DNA from: Bacillota bacterium
GTDB lineage: Bacteria > Bacillota > Bacilli > Bu12
Reading direction: 5' to 3'
DNA: 64,000 nucleotides
Assembly: GCA_014896485.1 (NCBI GenBank)
Contig: JADBKH010000005.1
Location: 7,500-71,499, forward strand
Positions 1-48,429 of this stretch are shown here, one piece after another. The translations under genes were made by a program, and so were the position numbers. Under the pieces are notes generated by a model, which ran no database searches, was not told the origin of the DNA, and saw nothing but the letters and a program-made list of their open reading frames with translations. Positions within the stretch are counted from its first letter, which is position 1, and every line of letters starts with the position of its first letter.

Positions 1-762
1 GAGATCGATCCCGCCAGAGCCGCCGTCACCGGGGTACCTTGGGGCACCTACGGCACACAGAGCTTGGGGCGTTGGTTTACCGCCTTGGGTATTTCCATGG
101 AAGATGAACAGACAAGCAAGGCACTTTTGCACATGAACGATACCCGTGTCCCGATGTTTAACCCGCTGCCCACCCTCACTCCGGTACGTAGTGGTACCCA
201 AATCCCTTTCGCCGGAACAGAAGCGATCATCCTTTGGGCACCGGGGCATACCCCGGGGCAGCTCAACCTCTATCTGCCGCAAACCCACGAACTCTTCTCC
301 GGCGATCATATTCTGCCCAAGATTACGCCGAACGTAAGCCGTCTGCCTGGTGGCCTGTTGAATCCGTTGGCATCCTACATGGAAAATTTGCGCCAATTGT
401 TGATGCTGCCGCTGGGCACCATCTACCCAGCTCACGGGAAAGTGCTGGAAGAAGGGGTCCGCCGTGTCATCGAGCTGTACGATCACCACATTGAGCGTGC
501 CCAACTGGCAGCAGAATGCGCACAGGGTGGCCGCAATGTCTTCGACATTACGATCGATCTGTTCAGCTATCGGCAACTGAAGGTTTGGGATTATCCATTG
601 GCCCTCGGTGAAGCGCTGGCCCACCTGGAGTATATGGTCTCCCAAAACCGCGTCGATCGTCTGATCGATGGCAAGCCGACCCTACCGGAGACTCGCTTGG
701 AAAGTGTACTACTCGATGTTCCTGAAGCAGAGATGCCCACTTTGCGTTACCGCAGCAAGTAA
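1..762 (+). CDS. MBL-fold metallo-hydrolase, 5' end truncated by the window edge
   Basis: Frame is open from nt 1. Translation has metallo-beta-lactamase-fold motifs (WAPGHTPGQ, SGDHIL). Confidence 0.6.
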   Translation, partial: EIDPARAAVTGVPWGTYGTQSLGRWFTALGISMEDEQTSKALLHMNDTRVPMFNPLPTLTPVRSGTQIPFAGTEAIILWAPGHTPGQLNLYLPQTHELFSGDHILPKITPNVSRLPGGLLNPLASYMENLRQLLMLPLGTIYPAHGKVLEEGVRRVIELYDHHIERAQLAAECAQGGRNVFDITIDLFSYRQLKVWDYPLALGEALAHLEYMVSQNRVDRLIDGKPTLPETRLESVLLDVPEAEMPTLRYRSK

Positions 763-9544: not shown

Positions 9545-9757
9545 ATCAAGCACAGTACTGTTGAAAGCGGAAGGGGATAGCCTTCCGCTTTCTTTTATCC
9601 ACTACACGATAGGCTCACCTCGAGCAGGCAATCGTGTATACTCCGAATGTAACCAGGGAAGGGGAGGATAACAGCGGACCGTCGCCAAGCGGTACGACGT
9701 GTATGGCTCTCTCTCAGCTTTTCTGCGACGATTCTGGCAGCTGAGCTGGCAGGGGGG

Positions 9758-33537: not shown

Positions 33538-33572
33538 TTAACACGAAAGGGGCACCCAACGGGTGCCCCTCC
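33538..33572 (-). terminator. Rho-independent terminator of groESL
   Basis: Minus-strand hairpin AGGGGCACCC-GTTG-GGTGCCCCT then TTCGTGTT, 18 nt after the groEL stop. Confidence 0.6.
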
Positions 33573-35587: not shown

Positions 35588-35614
35588 CTGGCACTCACTT
35601 GAGTTGAGTGCTAA
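35588..35614 (-). promoter_or_regulatory. CIRCE operator (HrcA binding site)
   Basis: Minus strand TTAGCACTC-AACTCAAGT-GAGTGCCAG, a near-perfect match to TTAGCACTC-N9-GAGTGCTAA, between the promoter and groES. Confidence 0.85.
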
Positions 35615-39587: not shown

Positions 39588-40727
39588 ATGTCTCCCATCC
39601 CGGAGTACAACGTACCTGGTCCGTCTCGGTCCCCTATCCGAGTGGCACTGGTTGGATTGGGTCGTATTGCGGTCAGTCATGCAGCTGCGCTGCAAGCAAG
39701 CGGCGCTGCACAGCTGGCGCTTGTCGTCGACCACCGCCTCCAACGGTGTCAGCATTTCAGCGAACGCTACAATGTACCGTATCTGGACGATTTCGAAGCC
39801 ACGCTATCGCGTGCCGATATCGATGCCATTGAGATTTGCACCCCGCACGTCACACACCCGGCCTTTGCCATTGCTGCCGCTTGCCATGGCAAGCACGTCC
39901 TTACAGAAAAGCCCCTGGCCACGCGAATCGAAGCCGCGGATGCGGTCATTGCTGCAGCACAGCTGCATCACATACAGGTTGGTGTCGTCTACCAGATGCG
40001 TTTTACGCCAGCTGCCCAGCAGCTGAAAAAATGGATCGAGGAAGGGGCCATTGGCAAACCCCTCGGTGCACGGGGTGTGTTGACGTGGCACCGTCCCACC
40101 CACTATTATGCCGGTTCCACCTGGAAGGGACGGTGGGCTACCGAAGGCGGCGGTGTCCTGATCAATCAAGCGATTCATCTGATCGATTTGATGTTGTGGT
40201 ACTTGGGTGAAGTTACCCAGGTACGTGCTTACTACGCCAATGTCGCTCATCCAGAAGTCGAAGTGGAAGATACCGCGCAGCTGCACCTCCGTTTTTCAGA
40301 GGGTTCGACAGGAATCATCTATGCTTCGACAGCGTATGTGGCGGACGCCCCGCTTTTCTTGGAGATTATCGGAGAACAGGGCACCTGCCGACTTATCGGT
40401 GAAAGCGCCCTTTTAGAGAAGAAGGGTAGCACCACCCGCGTTGAAGGCACAGCAGCTTCTACCGGCGGTCCCTCCTACTGGGGTTCCGGCCATGATGCTT
40501 TGATCGACGCCTTCTATCACAACGTGCAAGAGGAACGTCCTTTTTTGGTGGATGCCCAGGAAGGGCGCAAATCGTTGGCCGTCGTACTGGCAGCTTACGA
40601 CTCCGCACGGCTGAACGAGCCCGTCTCTTTTCCCTACAGCCATACTTTGACCGAAATCGATCCGAAAAATATGCCACACCCGGCTTTGGTCATCGAAGAG
40701 GAGGAAGCAGCACTGCGGAAGAACTGA
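39588..40727 (+). CDS. Gfo/Idh/MocA-family NAD(P)-dependent oxidoreductase
   Basis: VALVGLGRIAVSHAAAL Rossmann, VLTEKPLA motif. Confidence 0.8.
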   Translation: MSPIPEYNVPGPSRSPIRVALVGLGRIAVSHAAALQASGAAQLALVVDHRLQRCQHFSERYNVPYLDDFEATLSRADIDAIEICTPHVTHPAFAIAAACHGKHVLTEKPLATRIEAADAVIAAAQLHHIQVGVVYQMRFTPAAQQLKKWIEEGAIGKPLGARGVLTWHRPTHYYAGSTWKGRWATEGGGVLINQAIHLIDLMLWYLGEVTQVRAYYANVAHPEVEVEDTAQLHLRFSEGSTGIIYASTAYVADAPLFLEIIGEQGTCRLIGESALLEKKGSTTRVEGTAASTGGPSYWGSGHDALIDAFYHNVQEERPFLVDAQEGRKSLAVVLAAYDSARLNEPVSFPYSHTLTEIDPKNMPHPALVIEEEEAALRKN

Positions 40728-40731
40728 ACAC

Positions 40732-41382
40732 TCAAAGAATCCCGCGCAACCAGGCGACCCGGACAGCGTCAATACGCGAACTGACTTGCAAGCGATTGAA
40801 AAGTGTCCGAATGTGCGTCTCGACCGTACGACGGCTCAGTCCCAACTGCTTGGCAATCGCCTCGTTCTTCCAGCCGTCGGCGATCAATCGCAAAATCTCC
40901 AGTTCCCGCGGTGTCAAACTGTCGGCATCCTTTTTCCAGTCGTTAAAGCGTATGGTTATTTCCGGAGAAAAAACCCGGTTGCCCCGAGCCACTTGCCGGA
41001 CCGCTTCTGCTAAAAATCCCGGCTCCGCTGATTTGAGAAGATATCCCCAGGCCCCACTCGATTGTGCTGCGACAATGTACTCCATATAGTCATATCCACT
41101 CAACAACAACACCCGACTTTGCGGCGCCTGAAGCCGTAACTTCGGCATCAAGGCAAAGGCATCGCCGTCTCCCAGGGCAATATCGAGCAGGATGACCTGG
41201 GCCTCCATTTTTTCGATCGCACGAAGTGTCTCGTTGACGCTTGTCGCCGTCCCTACGACTGTAAGCCCGTACTCTTCCAAAATGCTTGCCGTCCCTTGAA
41301 CGACAACGGGATGATCGTCCACCACAAGCACCGTCACTTGCTCGGCCGCCTGTTCAACGCCGGAAGGGTGTGACAACGCCAT
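40732..41382 (-). CDS. LuxR/NarL-family response regulator (ComA-like)
   Basis: Receiver domain (VLVVDDHPVV ... phospho-accepting Asp in ILLDIALGDGD) plus C-terminal HTH_LuxR (LTPRELEILRLIADGWKNEAIAKQLGLSRRTVETH). The start may be the GTG at about 41337 (VTVLVVDDHP). Confidence 0.85.
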   Translation of the reverse strand: MALSHPSGVEQAAEQVTVLVVDDHPVVVQGTASILEEYGLTVVGTATSVNETLRAIEKMEAQVILLDIALGDGDAFALMPKLRLQAPQSRVLLLSGYDYMEYIVAAQSSGAWGYLLKSAEPGFLAEAVRQVARGNRVFSPEITIRFNDWKKDADSLTPRELEILRLIADGWKNEAIAKQLGLSRRTVETHIRTLFNRLQVSSRIDAVRVAWLRGIL

Positions 41383-43840
41383 GGTGCTGCCCCCTTCGCG
41401 TCTCCTGCCGCTGCTGAGATAGGCCGAAATCGGATACAGAGCGGCTGATCGGCAATGTCACATGAATGCGTGTTCCTTCCCCCGGAACCGAGTGCAGCGT
41501 CAACGTACCACCCATCCAGCGACAGCGATCCTTCATGTTCACCAACCCCGTATGTCCACTGACGATCAACTCATGATCAGAGAGTGGCTGAAAACCGACC
41601 CCATTGTCCCACGCATCGAGCAGTACATGATCTTCTTCTACCTGCAAGTGCATTTCGACATCGGTCGCAGCGGCATGACGCGCTACGTTAGAGAGGATCT
41701 CTTGAGCCAACCGATAGAGGGTCAATTCGATCTCCGGATGGATGCGCTCCCCTCGACGAGGGCCAGATGAAGTAAAGTGGACCGTAAAGTCTTCCCGACG
41801 CATCGTCTCTTCGGCCAACCATTGCAACGCAGCTTCAACGCCCAAATGCTCCAAGACCGTCGGGTAGAGTTGGGCTGCCGTCTCACGCAACTCAAATGCC
41901 GTATCCTTTGAAAGCTCGATGGCCTTGTCGAGCTGGCCGCGCAGCCGAGGATCGGCCAGTTGACCGCACACTTCTTCCATCAAACGCACGGCTGCCAAGT
42001 GGTTTTGCAGGAGTTCATCGTGCAGATCGGCAGCCAGCCGGCGGCGCTCCTGCTCCTGCAGCGAAACACGCAGTTTGTTCATCGCTGCCAGCTGTTCGGA
42101 ATCGCGACGGTTGCGCCACGATTCCCCGAGCAGATCGTCGACCCGCTGCTCAAGCTGGGCGATCAGACGCGCGTTTTCAAAAGCTGTAACGGCTTGGTTG
42201 GCGATCGTCTGCAGCCATGCCAAGTCTTGTCCGGACAAGCGCGTACGCGTTGTGCGCCGATCCAGGAAAAGCGCCCCGATGGTCACCCCATCCCGACAGA
42301 AAGGAACCAAAACCGAACCGGGCGCACCGGGAGGCAGGTACTCGGGTTCTGTCAGGGAACGCCACCACCAAGCAGCCGCTTCGACTTGCTGACGTAGCTT
42401 TTCGTTTTGGGCATAACTTCCTGCTGCTGCTGCCACATAGGGAAGGCTTTCGCGCTGATCCAGCACCAGGCAACTACCTTCCAGATGCATCACCTGCATC
42501 ACTTCTTCGCTGACCAGTCGTGTCAGTTCCCCAATGGTGTGCGGCTTTGCGATCGCTGCGCTCAATGCCTGCAGAGCCTGCCGGTAATCATACCAATCGC
42601 GAAAGACCGCTTTTTCAAGCCAACCTTGCAGTCGCTCCCGCAACGCCATAAAGGCGAGGAGCAACGCCAGGTTGATCAAGATGGCCGCTGTCACCACATT
42701 GGCTGTCAGTACCGTACCACTGCGAAAGATCAAAAAGAGGGCGACTGCATAGGCCCCCAGCAGCAACAAGCCGAAAAAACCGTAGACGAGGCTGCGGCGA
42801 AAGAGTGGACGGATGTCGATCACTTCATCGCGGGCAAAGACGTAGCCGATGGAAAGCGGAATAAAGAGAATGAAAAGGGTCCACAGCGGGTTTAACAAGA
42901 TCTCCGAAGGTGGACCAGCCAGTGGTTGGATATTGAGCAATAGTGTCTGCAGGCCGACCGTCAGCACAATCGGGGTAATTCCGACCAAAGCCCCAAAGAG
43001 CATCACCCGCAGCTGCGCCCGGACCAGTGGAGTAGTCGTACGCCAATGGGGCACGATCGCCTCCAGGCTCCAGCAGCCAACCCAAGCCAGGCTGATCAGC
43101 AAAGCACCCATGTTCAGCAGATGCAATTGGGTGAACCCCGCCTGATCGAGCAGTGCAACGATCGCCAAAAGCAGCGGCCAGGCAAGGATACCCCCCTGCT
43201 CCCATCGTTTTGCCGCATAGCCGAGCAAGTTATGGAAGAAAAAGGGTAGCGCTGCCGTAGCCGCAGCCAAAGCAATGCGTTCCAGCACAAAGAACCCGTA
43301 AATTCCAATGCTTGAGGGATGTGCGACAGCCAAGGCCAATCCTGCAGAGACACAAAAGAGATAGAGCCGATGGGCTGGGGGCCACCATTTGCGCTGTGCC
43401 AACACAAACCATCCGGCGGCAAAGAGGCTAATGCCCAAGGCGTACTCCAGCCAGAAAACCAAGCTTGGGCGATTGCTAAATGCGCCTATTGGATAGGTGA
43501 TATGAACGATACCATGCGAGGTCTGCACTGTGAATTGTTCGACTCTAGGAATCGTGGTATCCCCAGGGCGAATCACGGCTTCGGCCGGTTTGCCGTTGAC
43601 CTCCAAAAGCCGATCGCCGATCTGTATACCGGCTTGTGCTAGCTTGGAATCATGGGTGATCCCTGTAAAGATCACCTGTCCTGCCGGGTCACGTCCTACA
43701 AAAGCTTGCGAATCAGGGTAATTACTATCCAGCACAGGTATTAAGAGAAAGAAAGCCAAGAGGATCGGGGTAAAGACCTGGTGCCACCAAGGTCCTCCAC
43801 GCTCCTGTTCTTCCTGCGCTTCAGCGGTGACAGCACTCAT
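41354..43840 (-). CDS. Membrane sensor histidine kinase, ComP-like: PDZ-like extracytoplasmic loop, about 10 TM, cytoplasmic linker, HisKA_3 and HATPase_c
   Basis: TM1, then loop with PDZ-like GIQIGDRLLEVNGKPAEAV. Nine more hydrophobic segments. ERRRLAADLHDELLQNHLAAV is the HisKA_3 H-box; LLDAWDNGVGF is the ATPase G1 box. ATGA overlap with the upstream gene. Confidence 0.8.
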   Translation of the reverse strand: MSAVTAEAQEEQERGGPWWHQVFTPILLAFFLLIPVLDSNYPDSQAFVGRDPAGQVIFTGITHDSKLAQAGIQIGDRLLEVNGKPAEAVIRPGDTTIPRVEQFTVQTSHGIVHITYPIGAFSNRPSLVFWLEYALGISLFAAGWFVLAQRKWWPPAHRLYLFCVSAGLALAVAHPSSIGIYGFFVLERIALAAATAALPFFFHNLLGYAAKRWEQGGILAWPLLLAIVALLDQAGFTQLHLLNMGALLISLAWVGCWSLEAIVPHWRTTTPLVRAQLRVMLFGALVGITPIVLTVGLQTLLLNIQPLAGPPSEILLNPLWTLFILFIPLSIGYVFARDEVIDIRPLFRRSLVYGFFGLLLLGAYAVALFLIFRSGTVLTANVVTAAILINLALLLAFMALRERLQGWLEKAVFRDWYDYRQALQALSAAIAKPHTIGELTRLVSEEVMQVMHLEGSCLVLDQRESLPYVAAAAGSYAQNEKLRQQVEAAAWWWRSLTEPEYLPPGAPGSVLVPFCRDGVTIGALFLDRRTTRTRLSGQDLAWLQTIANQAVTAFENARLIAQLEQRVDDLLGESWRNRRDSEQLAAMNKLRVSLQEQERRRLAADLHDELLQNHLAAVRLMEEVCGQLADPRLRGQLDKAIELSKDTAFELRETAAQLYPTVLEHLGVEAALQWLAEETMRREDFTVHFTSSGPRRGERIHPEIELTLYRLAQEILSNVARHAAATDVEMHLQVEEDHVLLDAWDNGVGFQPLSDHELIVSGHTGLVNMKDRCRWMGGTLTLHSVPGEGTRIHVTLPISRSVSDFGLSQQRQETRRGQHHGVVTPFRR

Positions 43841-44766
43841 GAGCTCGGCTCCTCGTCGTACTGTAGCCATTGGCGCGCGATAGCCTCATCGGGAGCACAG
43901 CGTTGCGCTTCGGCTGCGATTGCAGCGCTGCACGCCCAGGTGTAGGCGAGACCACCGCTGGCGCGGATCGCTTCGCTTACCTCAGAAAGCGGCACCTCTC
44001 GGTGCTGCAGATAATAGGCTTGCAACGAATCTAACGCATCGCCCTTGGCTTGGTCCAGCGCATAGCGGACCGGCAGGGTGATCAGACGCTTTGCTAGATC
44101 GGCGAAACGTTGCGGATCCAGCACGGCCCGGGCATCGTTTTCCAACTGGTAGGCGACCCCGACCCGTCTTCCGAAGCAGGCCCAGGCCTGTTGGCGCTGG
44201 TCGTTGGCCCCAGCGGCCGCTGCCGCAAAGCGACAGATACCGCCAAACAGGGCGCCGGAACGGGCATCCAGAACCTGCAGAATGCGTTTCTCAGAGATGT
44301 CCGGCCGAAAGAGCTCCTGCTCCAACTGTGCTCCACTCGCAGCTTCAAGCACGGTTTGCTGCAAAATCGATACAACCGAATGGCCAGTCTTTTCGTCTAC
44401 CTTTTGTGCAGCACACAACGCCAACCCGGTGAGCTGCATCGAGACAAGGGCCAATTCCCCGGTCGACCACGTCGCCCAAGGAAGCGTGTCTGCATCCCCA
44501 TCGAGCGTATCATCGAGCAGATCGGCTGCCAAAAAAAGCCAACGACAGGCAAGCAACGCGTCGCAATCGGGGGCTACCTTTCCTTCGGCACGAAAGATAT
44601 CGGCAGCATATACGGCTGCATCGCGCACTTCTCCTGAGCCACATGCGTCATTGGTTTGTTTGGACAAAAAAAGGCCGTCAAAGAGCGAAAAATAGCGCTC
44701 TTCTGCGGCGTGCAGCGCCTGCTGCAAGTTCGACGCAACGCTCGTACGCAAAGGGTTACCGTTCAC
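43837..44766 (-). CDS. Polyprenyl-synthetase-fold protein with a single Asp-rich motif (ComQ-like isoprenyl transferase candidate)
   Basis: 309 aa; FARM-like LFLAADLLDDTLDGDAD (DDxxD). The second Asp-rich motif is degenerate (AYQLENDARAV). GTG start. Confidence 0.6.
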   Translation of the reverse strand: MNGNPLRTSVASNLQQALHAAEERYFSLFDGLFLSKQTNDACGSGEVRDAAVYAADIFRAEGKVAPDCDALLACRWLFLAADLLDDTLDGDADTLPWATWSTGELALVSMQLTGLALCAAQKVDEKTGHSVVSILQQTVLEAASGAQLEQELFRPDISEKRILQVLDARSGALFGGICRFAAAAAGANDQRQQAWACFGRRVGVAYQLENDARAVLDPQRFADLAKRLITLPVRYALDQAKGDALDSLQAYYLQHREVPLSEVSEAIRASGGLAYTWACSAAIAAEAQRCAPDEAIARQWLQYDEEPSS

Positions 44767-44791
44767 CGATAGGGTTCACCTTCGCATCAGC

Positions 44792-44974
44792 TCACCAGCA
44801 GCTTCCAACCGTGTAAAGGCTGCGCCCTTCACCTTTGCGACTCTGCTGGTCCGCTTCGATTCCGGAAAGAATTGCCCGCTGCTCACTCGGTGAAAGCTCC
44901 ACTCCCGCCATCGCAGCCTCTGGTGTCAACCCAGCGCGAAGTGCTTCCCAGACCTGTGCGAACTTTTCCCGCAT
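44792..44974 (-). CDS. 60-aa peptide ending ...YTVGSCW (candidate ComX-like pheromone precursor)
   Basis: Strong SD GAAGGAGGTG 6 nt before the ATG. C-terminal Trp, as in ComX precursors. Lies 25 nt upstream of the ComQ-like gene. Confidence 0.45.
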   Translation of the reverse strand: MREKFAQVWEALRAGLTPEAAMAGVELSPSEQRAILSGIEADQQSRKGEGRSLYTVGSCW

Positions 44975-45042
44975 ATCCTACACCTCCTTCGGCGCGATGT
45001 CACCACTTCTGCTAAGATTCGGCAAATTTCGCGCCCCTTCGC

Positions 45043-45074
45043 ATCATAAGCGTCGGCTTGTCGATAGACAAGCC
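45043..45074 (-). promoter_or_regulatory. Promoter with a perfect 8-4-8 palindrome GGCTTGTC-TATC-GACAAGCC overlapping the -35, then -10 TATGAT; candidate response-regulator box
   Basis: The palindrome at 45055..45074 is perfect. Minus-strand TTGTCT -17- TATGAT sits about 70 nt upstream of the peptide ATG. Confidence 0.45.
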
Positions 45075-45153
45075 ATTGGTCCTACGTGATCTCCGTACAT
45101 TTATCCACAATTTCCTGTGGGTAAACCGTTTCCCACCCATGTGGAGAGAGAAT

Positions 45154-45924
45154 TCAGGAGGAGGCTTGGGGCTGCATGGCCAATGCATTCCGACGCTCCA
45201 CACGCCGGTAGGTCCAGCGTGAAAGAGCGATGGCCCCTTCGTAAAGTGCGATAAAGGGAAGGGCAACCAGCGTCTGGGACAAGACGTCTGGTGGCGTAAG
45301 CAATCCGGCTACGACAAAAGCGGCCAGGATCGCTATCTTTCGACCTTTCTTGAGCAACGCAGGGGTAATCAGGTGAATCTCTGTCAAAAAAGAGGCAACG
45401 GCTGGCAACTCGAAGATCAAAGCCGTTGGAAAGACCAGATTGATCATAAACGTGATGGTCTGCGAAGCTGAAAGCATCACTTCGACACCAGCGCGGTGGG
45501 AAAATGTGATCATGAAGTGCAGAATACTGGGATAGAGAACAAAAAATCCGAAACTTGCTCCTGCACCAAAGAGCAGAACAGCTGAGGGCAGATAGAAATA
45601 GACCATGCGCCGTTCAGCAGGTAAAAGTCCTGGTTTGGCGAAAGCCCATGCCTGCCACAAGGCGACTGGAATGGTGATCAGAGCACCAACCAGAGCGGAG
45701 AGGCGCAGATAAACGCCGAAAATCTCCCCAGGAGAAAGTTGCACCAGGGGCGGAAGTCCCCGCGTCAGATAGCGAAAGATAGGCGTTGCAAACATAAAAG
45801 CTGCAAGGGTTGCCAAGACAAAGCAGACGGCCACTACGATCAGCCTACGGCGTAGCTCTTTGAAATGATCCGTAAAGTTCCCATTCCGTTGCGTGTCGCG
45901 GCGGCGTCGGTGCCAACGTCTCAT
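45154..45924 (-). CDS. tatC: Twin-arginine translocase subunit TatC
   Basis: FTDHFKELRRRLIVV N-terminus, 6-TM TatC profile. Start taken at the ATG at 45924; the track ORF is extended 39 aa. Confidence 0.85.
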   Translation of the reverse strand: MRRWHRRRRDTQRNGNFTDHFKELRRRLIVVAVCFVLATLAAFMFATPIFRYLTRGLPPLVQLSPGEIFGVYLRLSALVGALITIPVALWQAWAFAKPGLLPAERRMVYFYLPSAVLLFGAGASFGFFVLYPSILHFMITFSHRAGVEVMLSASQTITFMINLVFPTALIFELPAVASFLTEIHLITPALLKKGRKIAILAAFVVAGLLTPPDVLSQTLVALPFIALYEGAIALSRWTYRRVERRNALAMQPQASS

Positions 45925-45949
45925 CTTTTTCCGCCCCCATGAAGCATGC

Positions 45950-46456
45950 TTACTCTTCTTTGATATGGTTCTCGCCCGTGTGCTGCGTGTGACCGTGGGC
46001 AATCTCAATCGCGTGGCGCAGGACCTCTCCGGCCAATTCAAAAGCCTGACGCACCGCTCGCGGATTGCCGGGTAGATTCCAGATCAACGTCTCCTTGGAC
46101 ATGCCAGCCAAGCCCCGCGTCAGCAGCGCAGTCGGGGTCTCCCGAAAGGCAAGCAGCCGCACTGCTTCGGCCAACCCTGGAAGGTGGCGTTCCAACAAGG
46201 GTGCCGTCGCTTCCGGCGTGTGATCCCGAGGGCCTATACCGGTCCCTCCAGAAGTGATGATCAGATCGACACCCCGGTCGATCCCCGTCTGAAGCGCTGC
46301 ACGGATCTGTTCGACTTCATCCGGCACCACCGCTTTGCCAGAGACCTCAAAGCCCAGCTTTTGTAGCGCTTCCGTTGCCACTTCGCCACTTGCATCTTCT
46401 CGAACACCAGTTGCGACCGAATCGCTGATGGTCAACAGAAAGGCCGTCCAACTCAT
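45950..46456 (-). CDS. Molybdenum cofactor biosynthesis protein MogA/MoaB (molybdopterin adenylyltransferase family)
   Basis: GVDLIITSGGTGIGPRDHTPEA core motif. Confidence 0.8.
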   Translation of the reverse strand: MSWTAFLLTISDSVATGVREDASGEVATEALQKLGFEVSGKAVVPDEVEQIRAALQTGIDRGVDLIITSGGTGIGPRDHTPEATAPLLERHLPGLAEAVRLLAFRETPTALLTRGLAGMSKETLIWNLPGNPRAVRQAFELAGEVLRHAIEIAHGHTQHTGENHIKEE

Positions 46457-47547: not shown

Positions 47548-48429
47548 TCATCGATCACGCACTGCACCGCCCCGCTCGCCTGACTCGGCCAGACGTAATC
47601 GGACAAAGAGCCAGGGAGCCCCTCCAGCACCCCAGGCTCCCAAGAGAAGGCCTTCTAAAAAAGGAACAAAGGGGGAATCTGGAAGCAGCGGATAAAGGCC
47701 CACATACAGAATCACTATCCCAGCCACGCCGAGCAGCACACGGCCTACATACTGCCAGGGTTTGCCACTCGCCACAAAGTGCGTTGTCCGACGTTCTGCC
47801 CAATACGCTTCTCCAAGGGCGAGCAGTATTCCCATGTAAAAAAGGCTGTCGTGTGAACGATGGGCAACTGCCGCCCCAATCGTGATCACTGCCCATATCC
47901 CATGCTTTTTCCAGCCCCACTGTCTAACGATGGGCCAGTATCGCAACGCCAACGCACCCAACACTACAAAACATCCGCCTATCAGGATACCGCCAATCAC
48001 GTCCCAGGGCCAGTGTACGCCGAGATAGAGTCTTGAAAAGCTGACCAGTAACGTCAGCACGATGCCCACCACCAAAACCCAGCGGCGCCGTGTCAGATAC
48101 CACAGAAACCCCCAAAAAGTGATATTTCCTTGGGCGTGTCCACTCGGAAACGCATAGCCAGTAGCTTTTCCAATGGACAAGATGCCGGGAAAGTCAAGGG
48201 GCCTCGGTTCCTGAACGGTCTCCTTAATCCAAATGTTGGACTCTATGGAAAACAAGAACACGGTGACCAGGCGCAGGGTCAACGCAGGACTGACACACCA
48301 AAAGAGGATCAACAACACGGCCGTATAAAAAGTCGGGTCACCGAGCTGGGTCACCATGCGGAAAAAGCTGTCCAACGCCGGTGTATGGATCGACTGAATG
48401 GCATACAGCCATGCAAGTTGCCCCTGCAC
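47548..48429 (-). CDS. PAP2-superfamily membrane phosphatase
   Basis: KETVQEPRP, PSGHA and SRLYLGVHWPWDV match the three PAP2 motifs; multi-TM. Confidence 0.8.
   Translation of the reverse strand: MQGQLAWLYAIQSIHTPALDSFFRMVTQLGDPTFYTAVLLILFWCVSPALTLRLVTVFLFSIESNIWIKETVQEPRPLDFPGILSIGKATGYAFPSGHAQGNITFWGFLWYLTRRRWVLVVGIVLTLLVSFSRLYLGVHWPWDVIGGILIGGCFVVLGALALRYWPIVRQWGWKKHGIWAVITIGAAVAHRSHDSLFYMGILLALGEAYWAERRTTHFVASGKPWQYVGRVLLGVAGIVILYVGLYPLLPDSPFVPFLEGLLLGAWGAGGAPWLFVRLRLAESGERGGAVRDR

What the first reader, a model, noticed from the sequence alone, without database searches (positions are those of the whole stretch)
45043..45074. Perfect 20-bp palindrome overlapping the -35 of the candidate pheromone-precursor promoter
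GGCTTGTC-TATC-GACAAGCC is a flawless 8-4-8 inverted repeat centred about 95 nt upstream of the peptide ATG, immediately followed by TATGAT at the right spacing for a -10. LuxR/NarL regulators such as ComA bind inverted repeats near -35 and activate as class II factors, so this would allow autoinduction of the cassette. It is structurally TTGTC-N-GACAA, not the B. subtilis ComA box TTGCGG-N4-CCGCAA.
Basis: seen in the sequence. Interest (0 to 1): 0.55.

Follow-up and report, generated by a model that had tools for sequence, protein, structure and literature searches.

The report
Palindrome in ComX-like cassette promoter
A perfect 20-bp palindrome lies over the likely promoter of a ComX-like peptide-signalling operon in an uncultured bacterium; it is a plausible but unproven docking site for the operon's own regulator, placed where binding would more likely block than switch on transcription.

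Summary
GGCTTGTC-N4-GACAAGCC is at window 45055..45074. Its left arm supplies the -35 hexamer of the best promoter-like match in the gap (TTGTCT-17-TATGAT), 90 nt upstream of a 60-aa peptide gene. That gene heads an operon: peptide, ComQ-like prenyltransferase, HisKA_3 kinase, REC-GerE regulator.

The palindrome is unusual for its 179-nt gap (P about 0.015) but not for the 64-kb window. No second copy exists in the window. The cassette has no close relative in any collection searched, so conservation could not be tested.

Indirect support comes from distant cassettes. One large family keeps two canonical ComA boxes (TTGCGG-N4-CCGCAA) plus a half-site upstream of its peptide gene, and another lineage has a perfect 20-bp palindrome there.

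The class II activation reading does not fit the geometry. With TATGAT as -10 the palindrome spans about -38 to -19, centred at -28.5 rather than -41.5. That is where repressors sit.

My best reading is a feedback operator for the cassette's regulator, with the sign unresolved and repression favoured. A hairpin at the 3' end of the tatC transcript, or chance, remain serious rivals. This is an ordinary kind of feature of modest interest.

The parts
45055..45074 (.). Perfect 8-4-8 palindrome GGCTTGTC-N4-GACAAGCC, the candidate operator. As RNA on the - strand it forms a hairpin of -13.7 kcal/mol.
45066..45071 (-). -35-like hexamer TTGTCT, lying inside the left arm of the palindrome
45043..45048 (-). 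-10-like hexamer TATGAT, 17 nt from the -35. It predicts a transcription start near 45036.
   Evidence: Two other promoter-like matches lie in intergenic gaps in the right orientation, ahead of the gene starts at 35594 and 38312; the second also has TATGAT as its -10.
44991..45036 (-). Predicted hairpin in the 5' UTR (GGCGCGA...UCGCGCC), immediately 5' of the ribosome-binding site
   Evidence: whole gap z = -2.98; no Rfam match
44981..44990 (-). Shine-Dalgarno region GAAGGAGGTG, 6 nt before the ATG
   Evidence: read from the sequence
44792..44974 (-). 60-aa precursor peptide gene. It has a loosely NHLP-like leader and a C-terminal Trp (…TVGSCW).
   Evidence: No Pfam or NCBIfam hit. The L001 counterpart hits NF038399, an Os1348/NHLP clan model.
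43837..44766 (-). ComQ-like peptide prenyltransferase candidate with the polyprenyl synthetase fold
41354..43870 (-). Membrane histidine kinase with PDZ, GAF, HisKA_3 and HATPase_c domains; ComP-like position in the operon
40732..41382 (-). Response regulator with REC + GerE/LuxR-type HTH (NarL/FixJ family). It is the only DNA-binding protein recognised among the neighbouring genes that were examined.
   Evidence: neighbours
45154..46041 (-). tatC, the upstream gene on the same strand. Its stop codon is 80 nt 5' of the palindrome.

Best explanation
The palindrome is a dyad-symmetric protein-binding operator laid over the core promoter of the peptide / ComQ-like / kinase / regulator operon. The most likely binder is a dimer of the NarL/FixJ-type response regulator encoded at the end of that operon. 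The signalling system would then feed back on production of its own peptide.

The site covers the -35 hexamer and most of the spacer (about -38 to -19). A bound dimer would therefore compete with sigma region 4 and RNA polymerase. I expect the feedback to be negative or limiting rather than class II activation.

Shown: the palindrome, the promoter-like hexamers, the gene content, and the absence of another regulator gene among the neighbours examined.

Inferred: that the promoter is used, that the regulator binds, and the sign of the effect.
For: - The palindrome is locally improbable (P about 0.015). It overlaps the only promoter-like match that leaves a 5' UTR with a ribosome-binding site.
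- Sigma-70-like matches in this organism do fall in intergenic gaps in the right orientation.
- The 6-N4-6 (or 7-2-7) dyad within 16-20 bp fits NarL/FixJ-family dimers. The regulator's best solved relatives are NarL, VraR, ChrA, DesR and DevR, and ComA uses hexamer-N4-hexamer (PMC4797271).
- In the L001/L004/L015/L018/L019 cassette family, which has the same X-Q-P-A order, two TTrCGG-N4-CCGCAA palindromes and a third half-site are conserved while flanks and spacers diverge. That is a footprint of a DNA-level operator in front of the peptide gene.
- A third lineage, L024, has a perfect 20-bp palindrome 54 nt before its peptide ATG.
- Combined over five lineages without the window, Fisher P is about 0.01.
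- The window regulator's recognition helix (RTVETHIRT) differs from that of the L001 family (RTVEFHITN). A different half-site is therefore expected.
Against: - There is only one sequence. The second copy, L003, is the same species with one SNP, so there is no phylogenetic footprint.
- There is no second site in 64 kb.
- The regulator has no close relative in the GTDB representative genomes.
- Three of the five other lineages (L021, L022, L023) show no significant inverted repeat upstream of the peptide gene.
- The positions differ between lineages: upstream of a weak promoter in L004, downstream of the promoter-like match in L024, and over the -35 and spacer here.
- Perfect 8-bp inverted repeats are not rare across the window.
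- The transcription start is predicted, not mapped.
Confidence: 0.3

Rival explanations
1. The regulator binds the palindrome and activates the promoter as a class II factor, giving positive autoinduction of the pheromone cassette.
For: - The binder and the dyad arguments are the same as for the best explanation.
- The L001-family promoters look activator-dependent. They have ComA boxes upstream and no consensus sigma-70 match, as in B. subtilis ComA targets, where a site adjacent to the -35 is proposed to act by a type II mechanism (PMC4797271).
- The -35 here (TTGTCT) is imperfect, at 4 of 6.
Against: - With the only usable -10 (TATGAT) the site is centred at about -28.5 and covers the spacer, not -41.5.
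- The promoter already scores 9 of 12 with an optimal 17-nt spacer, so it does not obviously need an activator.
- B. subtilis ComQXPA itself has no signal-dependent positive feedback (PMC7794433).
Confidence: 0.15
2. The repeat works as RNA. It is a stem-loop at the 3' end of the moaC-moaB-tatC transcript, acting as a terminator without a U-tract or as a 3' stabiliser that insulates the cassette from read-through.
For: - It lies 80 nt after the tatC stop on the same strand.
- The stem folds at -13.7 kcal/mol with z = -5.5.
- Canonical hairpin-plus-T-tract terminators are barely above shuffle level in this window (29 against 22.8 and 30 against 22.3). Non-canonical 3' ends are therefore plausible.
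- Perfect inverted repeats are enriched in intergenic DNA, and one of them (33548..33570) sits between convergent genes.
Against: - There is no U-tract. The tail is GACGCUUAUGAUG, and the terminator scan does not list the site.
- The convergent-gene hairpin at 33548 is much stronger (-22.9 kcal/mol) and is followed on the - strand by UUUCGUGUU.
- The stem is only 5/8 G-C.
- In L004 the terminator and the regulator boxes are separate elements.
- The overlap with a well-spaced -35/-10 pair would then be a coincidence.
Confidence: 0.15
3. It is an operator for some other transcription factor encoded elsewhere, for example a CRP/FNR-type protein recognising TTGTC-N4-GACAA (the same 5-4-5 geometry as the FNR box TTGAT-N4-ATCAA), or Spo0A (the + strand reads TGTCGAT, 6 of 7 of the 0A box TGTCGAA). 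Both consensus sequences are quoted from memory.
For: - The geometric resemblance can be read from the sequence.
- Quorum-sensing cassettes are often wired to global regulators.
Against: - No such regulator gene was recognised among the neighbouring genes examined.
- By my estimate, partial matches to these short consensus sequences are expected by chance in a gap of this size.
- The position is wrong for class II CRP/FNR activation.
- There is no second copy of the core above chance.
Confidence: 0.1
4. It has no function. It is a chance palindrome that happens to include a -35-like TTGTC.
For: - About 10 nested hits for perfect 8-bp inverted repeats are expected per 64 kb.
- My estimate is about 0.5 expected in the 3.8 kb of intergenic DNA.
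- At least 120 unrelated exact copies exist in metagenome contigs, with no link to the cassette genes.
Against: - Perfect repeats are enriched in intergenic DNA, 3 of 11 in 6% of the window.
- It coincides with the promoter.
- Palindromes recur in the same place in independent cassette lineages.
Confidence: 0.3

Closest known systems
B. subtilis ComA box (RE1-N4-RE2, TTGCGG-N4-CCGCAA, with RE3/RE4 direct repeat next to the -35; PMC4797271)
   Same: - A dyad of two hexamers with a 4-nt spacer.
- A candidate target of a tetrahelical-HTH response regulator encoded in a ComQXPA-type cassette.
   Different: - The half-site is CTTGTC, not TTGCGG.
- It is a single dyad with no RE3/RE4-like repeat.
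- It lies over the -35 and spacer rather than upstream of the -35.
- It sits in front of the pheromone gene itself. [quoted passage not shown]
ComA-box arrays upstream of the peptide gene in the L001/L004/L015/L018/L019 cassette family
   Same: - The same X-Q-P-A gene order.
- A palindrome 85-125 nt upstream of the peptide ATG, against 90 nt here.
   Different: - Those carry two TTrCGG-N4-CCGCAA dyads 30 bp apart plus a half-site, upstream of a weak promoter. A separate canonical terminator sits further upstream in L004.
- They sit on what looks like an integrative element.
- Their ComQ-like proteins are only 15-17% identical to the window's in the alignment.
20-bp palindromic operators of LuxR/FixJ-family proteins, such as the lux box at -42.5 and the DevR/DosR box overlapping the -35 (both from memory)
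   Same: - 20-bp dyad symmetry.
- Overlap with the -35.
- A regulator family with a GerE-type HTH. DevR is among the solved relatives of the window's regulator.
   Different: - Those activator sites are centred near -41 to -43, while this one is centred near -28.5.
- From memory, a lux box moved between the -35 and -10 turns LuxR into a repressor (Egland and Greenberg 2000). That is the closer analogy.
PalP-PalX-PalQ (Paenibacillus alvei; PMC10853753) and StheQ-StheX (Sphaerobacter; bioRxiv 10.64898/2026.08.29.745113) peptide Trp-prenylation clusters
   Same: - A precursor with a leader and a C-terminal or near-C-terminal Trp.
- A neighbouring prenyltransferase of the isoprenyl diphosphate synthase fold (PalQ is placed in the wider isoprene synthase domain superfamily).
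- A histidine kinase in the cluster (Pal).
   Different: - In the passages read, those papers do not describe a promoter operator.
- The window's enzyme has no relative above 34% identity.
- The window's cluster also encodes the response regulator.

Membership tests
B. subtilis-type ComA box | Inverted repeat of the hexamer TTGCGG with a 4-nt spacer | tested here: not met
   The geometry matches (hexamer-N4-hexamer) but the half-site is CTTGTC/GACAAG. Consensus from PMC4797271.
B. subtilis-type ComA box | An additional RE3/RE4 direct repeat between the dyad and the -35 | tested here: not met
   The repeat finder on 44700..45300 reports no direct-repeat copy of either arm, and the dyad itself covers the -35.
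B. subtilis-type ComA box | Bound by the phosphorylated ComA-type regulator | not testable with these tools
   Needs EMSA or footprinting.
Class II (-41.5) activator site | Site centred about 41.5 bp upstream of the transcription start, overlapping the -35 but leaving the spacer free | tested here: not met
   With the -10 at 45048..45043 the centre is at about -28.5 and the span is -38..-19. The transcription start is predicted, not mapped.
Operator overlapping a core promoter (repressor-type) | Dyad symmetry lying between or over the -35 and -10 of a credible promoter | tested here: met
   TTGTCT-17-TATGAT scores 9 of 12, and the palindrome covers the -35 and 11 of the 17 spacer bases.
Operator overlapping a core promoter (repressor-type) | Arms conserved in related genomes while the spacer and flanks drift | tested here: inconclusive
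   The only other copy is the same species with 1 SNP. No orthologous cassette exists in any collection searched.
Rho-independent terminator | G+C-rich stem-loop shortly after a stop codon | tested here: met
   8-bp stem with 5 G-C pairs, -13.7 kcal/mol, 80 nt after the tatC stop.
Rho-independent terminator | A run of U immediately 3' of the stem | tested here: not met
   The tail is GACGCUUAUGAUG, and the terminator scan does not list the site.
ComQXPA-like quorum-sensing cassette (the context) | ComQ-like isoprenyl transferase, a short precursor with Trp near the C-terminus, a HisKA_3 kinase and a NarL-type regulator, all on one strand | tested here: met
ComQXPA-like quorum-sensing cassette (the context) | Gene order Q-X-P-A | tested here: not met
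   The order here is X-Q-P-A, as in L001, L023 and others.
ComQXPA-like quorum-sensing cassette (the context) | The peptide is prenylated, exported and sensed by the kinase | not testable with these tools
   Needs biochemistry.

The most novel reading that the evidence does not exclude
An uncultured Firmicutes lineage runs a ComX-type prenylated-peptide signalling system in which the response regulator binds a previously undescribed dyad (CTTGTC-N4-GACAAG) directly over the pheromone-operon promoter. Signal production is then under direct feedback, and probably negative feedback, from signal perception. B. subtilis ComQXPA lacks such a link (PMC7794433). Together with the conserved ComA boxes in front of the peptide gene in the mobile-element cassettes, this would mean that feedback on signal production is the common design of ComX-like systems and B. 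subtilis is the exception.
Probability: 0.3. Interest if true: 0.45.

Novelty: new member of a known kind. Interest (0 to 1): 0.27.

Why it matters
If the regulator does bind here, this cassette would be a ComX-like system whose signal production is wired to signal perception, unlike the B. subtilis model system. It would also add a new half-site specificity for a NarL/FixJ-type regulator. The position of the site predicts homeostatic (negative) rather than explosive (positive) feedback, and that changes how such a system would behave as a density sensor. Taken alone, though, it is one unconserved candidate operator in one metagenome-assembled genome.

Tried and rejected
- Orthologue footprinting failed.
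  - The ComQ-like protein has only itself in the word-indexed search. In the exhaustive phmmer search the next relative is 34% identical at E = 3e-17.
  - The only other copy, L003, is the same species.
The best relatives were 34% identical or less over most of the protein, and the source genome is not in that collection.
- The metagenome scan for the exact palindrome returned at least 120 matches. None has RR, HK, ComQ, peptide or TatC similarity, or any DNA similarity to the gap. They are chance occurrences, not a regulon.
- No repeated-element (REP-like) explanation holds, because there is no second copy in the window.
- There is no Rfam family in 44700..45300.
- A Spo0A 0A-box or FNR-like reading was considered. 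The partial matches are what chance gives in a gap this size, and no such gene was recognised among the neighbours examined.
- The second promoter-like match (GTGACA-17-TAGGAT, 45003..44975) abuts the ATG and would remove the ribosome-binding site, so I rejected it as the operon promoter.
- The viral-contig scan for the L001-type ComQ found nothing.
- Look-up of the Longilinea ComQ-like protein P0222 found no record.

Full report
**What is there.**
On the + strand, window 45055..45074 reads GGCTTGTCGATAGACAAGCC. On the - strand, which is the coding strand of the neighbouring genes, it reads GGCTTGTC-TATC-GACAAGCC, a perfect 8-4-8 inverted repeat.

It lies in a 179-nt gap on the - strand. The gap runs from the stop codon of tatC (45154; PF00902) to the ATG (44974) of a 60-aa ORF that is preceded by GAAGGAGGTG.

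The promoter scan finds TTGTCT-17-TATGAT at 45071..45043, with 9 of 12 matches. The -35 hexamer is part of the left arm.

**The context is a ComX-like cassette.**
Four genes follow on the same strand:
- A peptide, MREKF…TVGSCW.
- A 309-aa polyprenyl-synthetase-fold protein (PF00348).
- An 838-aa kinase with PDZ, GAF, HisKA_3 and HATPase_c domains.
- A 216-aa REC+GerE regulator whose best solved relatives are NarL, VraR, ChrA, DesR and DevR.

The gene order is X-Q-P-A rather than Q-X-P-A. The peptide aligns loosely (27-29% identity) with the 70-aa peptides of distant cassettes. One of those peptides hits the Os1348/NHLP-clan model.

A C-terminal Trp on an NHLP-type precursor next to such an enzyme and a kinase is what PalPXQ shows (PMC10853753). 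A ComQ-like pair has also been described in Sphaerobacter (bioRxiv 10.64898/2026.08.29.745113). The cassette is therefore of a known kind.

Its source is an NCBI MAG labelled 'Firmicutes bacterium'. None of the neighbouring genes examined, from the MocA-type oxidoreductase gene at 39588 to the PAP2 gene ending at 48429, carries a recognised DNA-binding domain.

**Is the palindrome more than chance?**
- Locally it is, though modestly. In 1000 dinucleotide shuffles of the gap, about 1.5% reach a perfect arm of at least 8 bp with a spacer of 0-8.
- Across the window it is not. There are 11 distinct perfect repeats of this kind, and a Markov model expects about 10 nested hits against 18 observed.
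- Three of the 11 are intergenic, although only about 6% of the window is.
- There is no second copy with up to 3 mismatches.
- The 14-bp core with up to 1 mismatch is not enriched.

**Is the promoter credible?**
Promoter-like matches in 30-50 kb occur at shuffle frequency overall, 9 against 8.8. However, three loci fall in intergenic gaps in the correct orientation, ahead of the gene starts at 35594, 38312 and 44974. One of the other two has the same -10, TATGAT.

Downstream of the palindrome, the only other TANNNT is TAGGAT, which abuts the ATG and would leave no ribosome-binding site on the mRNA. TATGAT is therefore the only usable -10, and it places +1 near 45036 with a 62-nt 5' UTR.

**Geometry.**
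With that start site the palindrome spans about -38 to -19 and is centred at -28.5. A class II activator site is centred near -41.5 and leaves the spacer free. A dyad covering the -35 and the spacer is the classical place for an occluding operator.

The idea that the cassette's regulator binds there remains reasonable.

**Orthologues.**
None exist.
- The ComQ-like protein has only itself in the 5.8-billion-protein index.
- In an exhaustive phmmer scan of 1.84 billion representatives, the next hit is 34% identical at E = 3e-17.
- A Logan contig (L003) carries the identical protein and differs by one SNP in the gap, so it is the same species.
- The regulator has no close relative in the GTDB representatives, and the source genome is not among them.

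**Distant cassettes give indirect evidence.**
- **L001 family.** Kinase homologues led to L001 and L004, and ComQ-profile hits led to L015-L019. All have a 70-aa peptide, a ComQ-like enzyme, a HisKA_3 kinase and a REC-GerE regulator.
- **Conserved boxes in that family.** In the alignment of the region upstream of the peptide gene, the flanks are divergent. Two palindromes TTrCGG-N4-CCGCAA, 30 bp apart, plus a third TTGCGG half-site are conserved, and their spacers vary. This is the B. subtilis ComA-box consensus (PMC4797271), here as a DNA-level footprint.
- **Layout in L004.** A canonical terminator lies just upstream of the boxes, and no consensus sigma-70 promoter follows them. That is the layout of an activator-dependent promoter.
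- **L024.** In this lineage the ComQ-like protein is 32% identical to the window's. It has a perfect 20-bp palindrome CACCGCTGGA|TCCAGCGGTG 54 nt before the peptide ATG, plus a third half-site. The palindrome lies downstream of the only promoter-like match.
- **L021, L022 and L023.** These show nothing significant.
- **Combined.** Fisher combination over the five lineages without the window gives P of about 0.01.

A palindrome in front of the peptide gene is thus a recurrent, though not universal, feature of these cassettes. Its sequence and position differ between lineages. The regulators' recognition helices also differ, RTVETHIRT here against RTVEFHITN in the L001 family.

**RNA alternative.**
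- **For it.** Transcribed from the tatC side, the repeat folds at -13.7 kcal/mol, 80 nt after the tatC stop. Canonical terminators are barely enriched in this window.
- **Against it.** There is no U-tract, and the terminator scan does not list the site. The hairpin between convergent genes at 33548..33570 is far stronger (-22.9 kcal/mol) and has a U-rich tail on the - strand.

I cannot exclude a 3'-end role. It could coexist with an operator role.

**Other checks.**
- There is no Rfam match in the region.
- The exact palindrome occurs at least 120 times in metagenome contigs. None of those loci encodes anything like the cassette proteins or resembles the gap, so it is not a widespread element.

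**Verdict.**
A feedback operator for the cassette's regulator is the best single explanation: I give about 0.30 to the repressive reading that the geometry favours and about 0.15 to the activating version.
- A 3'-end hairpin (0.15), another factor (0.10) and chance (0.30) remain.
- Compared with B. subtilis, where ComX production has no signal-dependent feedback and no regulator of the operon is known (PMC7794433), a regulator site on the pheromone promoter would be a real difference.
- The feature is still an ordinary kind of thing, a candidate operator, seen in one genome and with no way to test it computationally.

Noticed in passing
L001 3818..13990; L004 192..7780; L015-L019 (same layout): A widespread family of X-Q-P-A cassettes: a 70-aa NHLP/Os1348-like peptide with Trp near the end, a ComQ-like enzyme, a HisKA_3 kinase and a REC-GerE regulator. 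They sit between an HTH_17 excisionase-like gene with a 112-aa HTH protein on one side and one or two large serine recombinases on the other. This looks like a ComX-type signalling module carried on an integrative mobile element. Other ComQ-profile hits carry Longilinea and Anaerolineaceae names. No close relative was found in IMG/VR.
   Followed up: partly
L004 654..715; L001 4705..4763; alignment A5: Two conserved TTrCGG-N4-CCGCAA palindromes 30 bp apart, plus a TTGCGG half-site, lie upstream of the peptide gene of that family. This is the B. subtilis ComA-box consensus, seen outside Bacillus and in front of the pheromone gene itself.
   Followed up: partly
L024 436..455 and 390..398: A perfect 20-bp palindrome CACCGCTGGATCCAGCGGTG lies 54 nt before a 51-aa peptide gene next to a ComQ-like gene, with a third half-site CACCGCAGG 46 nt upstream. 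It lies downstream of the only promoter-like match, so it could be an operator or a hairpin in the 5' UTR.
   Followed up: partly
window 44991..45036 (- strand): A predicted long hairpin (GGCGCGA…UCGCGCC) lies in the putative 5' UTR, ending right at the ribosome-binding site of the peptide gene. The whole 186-nt gap folds with z = -2.98. There is no Rfam match.
   Followed up: partly
window 41354..43870 (- strand): The cassette's kinase carries PDZ and GAF domains ahead of HisKA_3. A kinase with the same architecture (P0005, 26% identical) sits in a plain regulator-kinase pair without a ComQ or peptide gene (L002).
   Followed up: no
window 44792..44974 (- strand): The precursor ends in a C-terminal Trp preceded by Cys (…GSCW). 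C-terminal Trp is the substrate rule of PalQ (PMC10853753) rather than the internal Trp of Bacillus ComX.
   Followed up: no
window 33548..33570: A perfect 10-bp-stem hairpin (AGGGGCACCC-AAC-GGGTGCCCCT; 12 pairs and -22.9 kcal/mol on the - strand) lies between two convergent genes. It is probably a bidirectional terminator, U-rich on the - strand only.
   Followed up: partly
window 9566..9589: A perfect 9-bp-arm inverted repeat AGCGGAAGG-GGATAG-CCTTCCGCT, followed by TTCTTTTAT, lies in a gap between divergently oriented ORFs, 13 nt from the start of the - strand ORF.
   Followed up: no
L025-L144 (metagenome matches to the palindrome): Among 120 exact matches to GGCTTGTC-N4-GACAAGCC in metagenome contigs, the spacers TCAC and GTGA account for 15. 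They may mark some conserved element unrelated to this cassette.
   Followed up: no
L021 346..361, 17..32 and 377..406: In the locus of the closest ComQ relative (P0049, 34% identical), a perfect TTGACA-17-TATAAT promoter precedes a 73-aa NHLP-like peptide gene. An imperfect palindrome GCTGTTTCGAACCAGC lies about 60 nt upstream of the predicted start, and a near-copy lies 330 nt further up.
   Followed up: no
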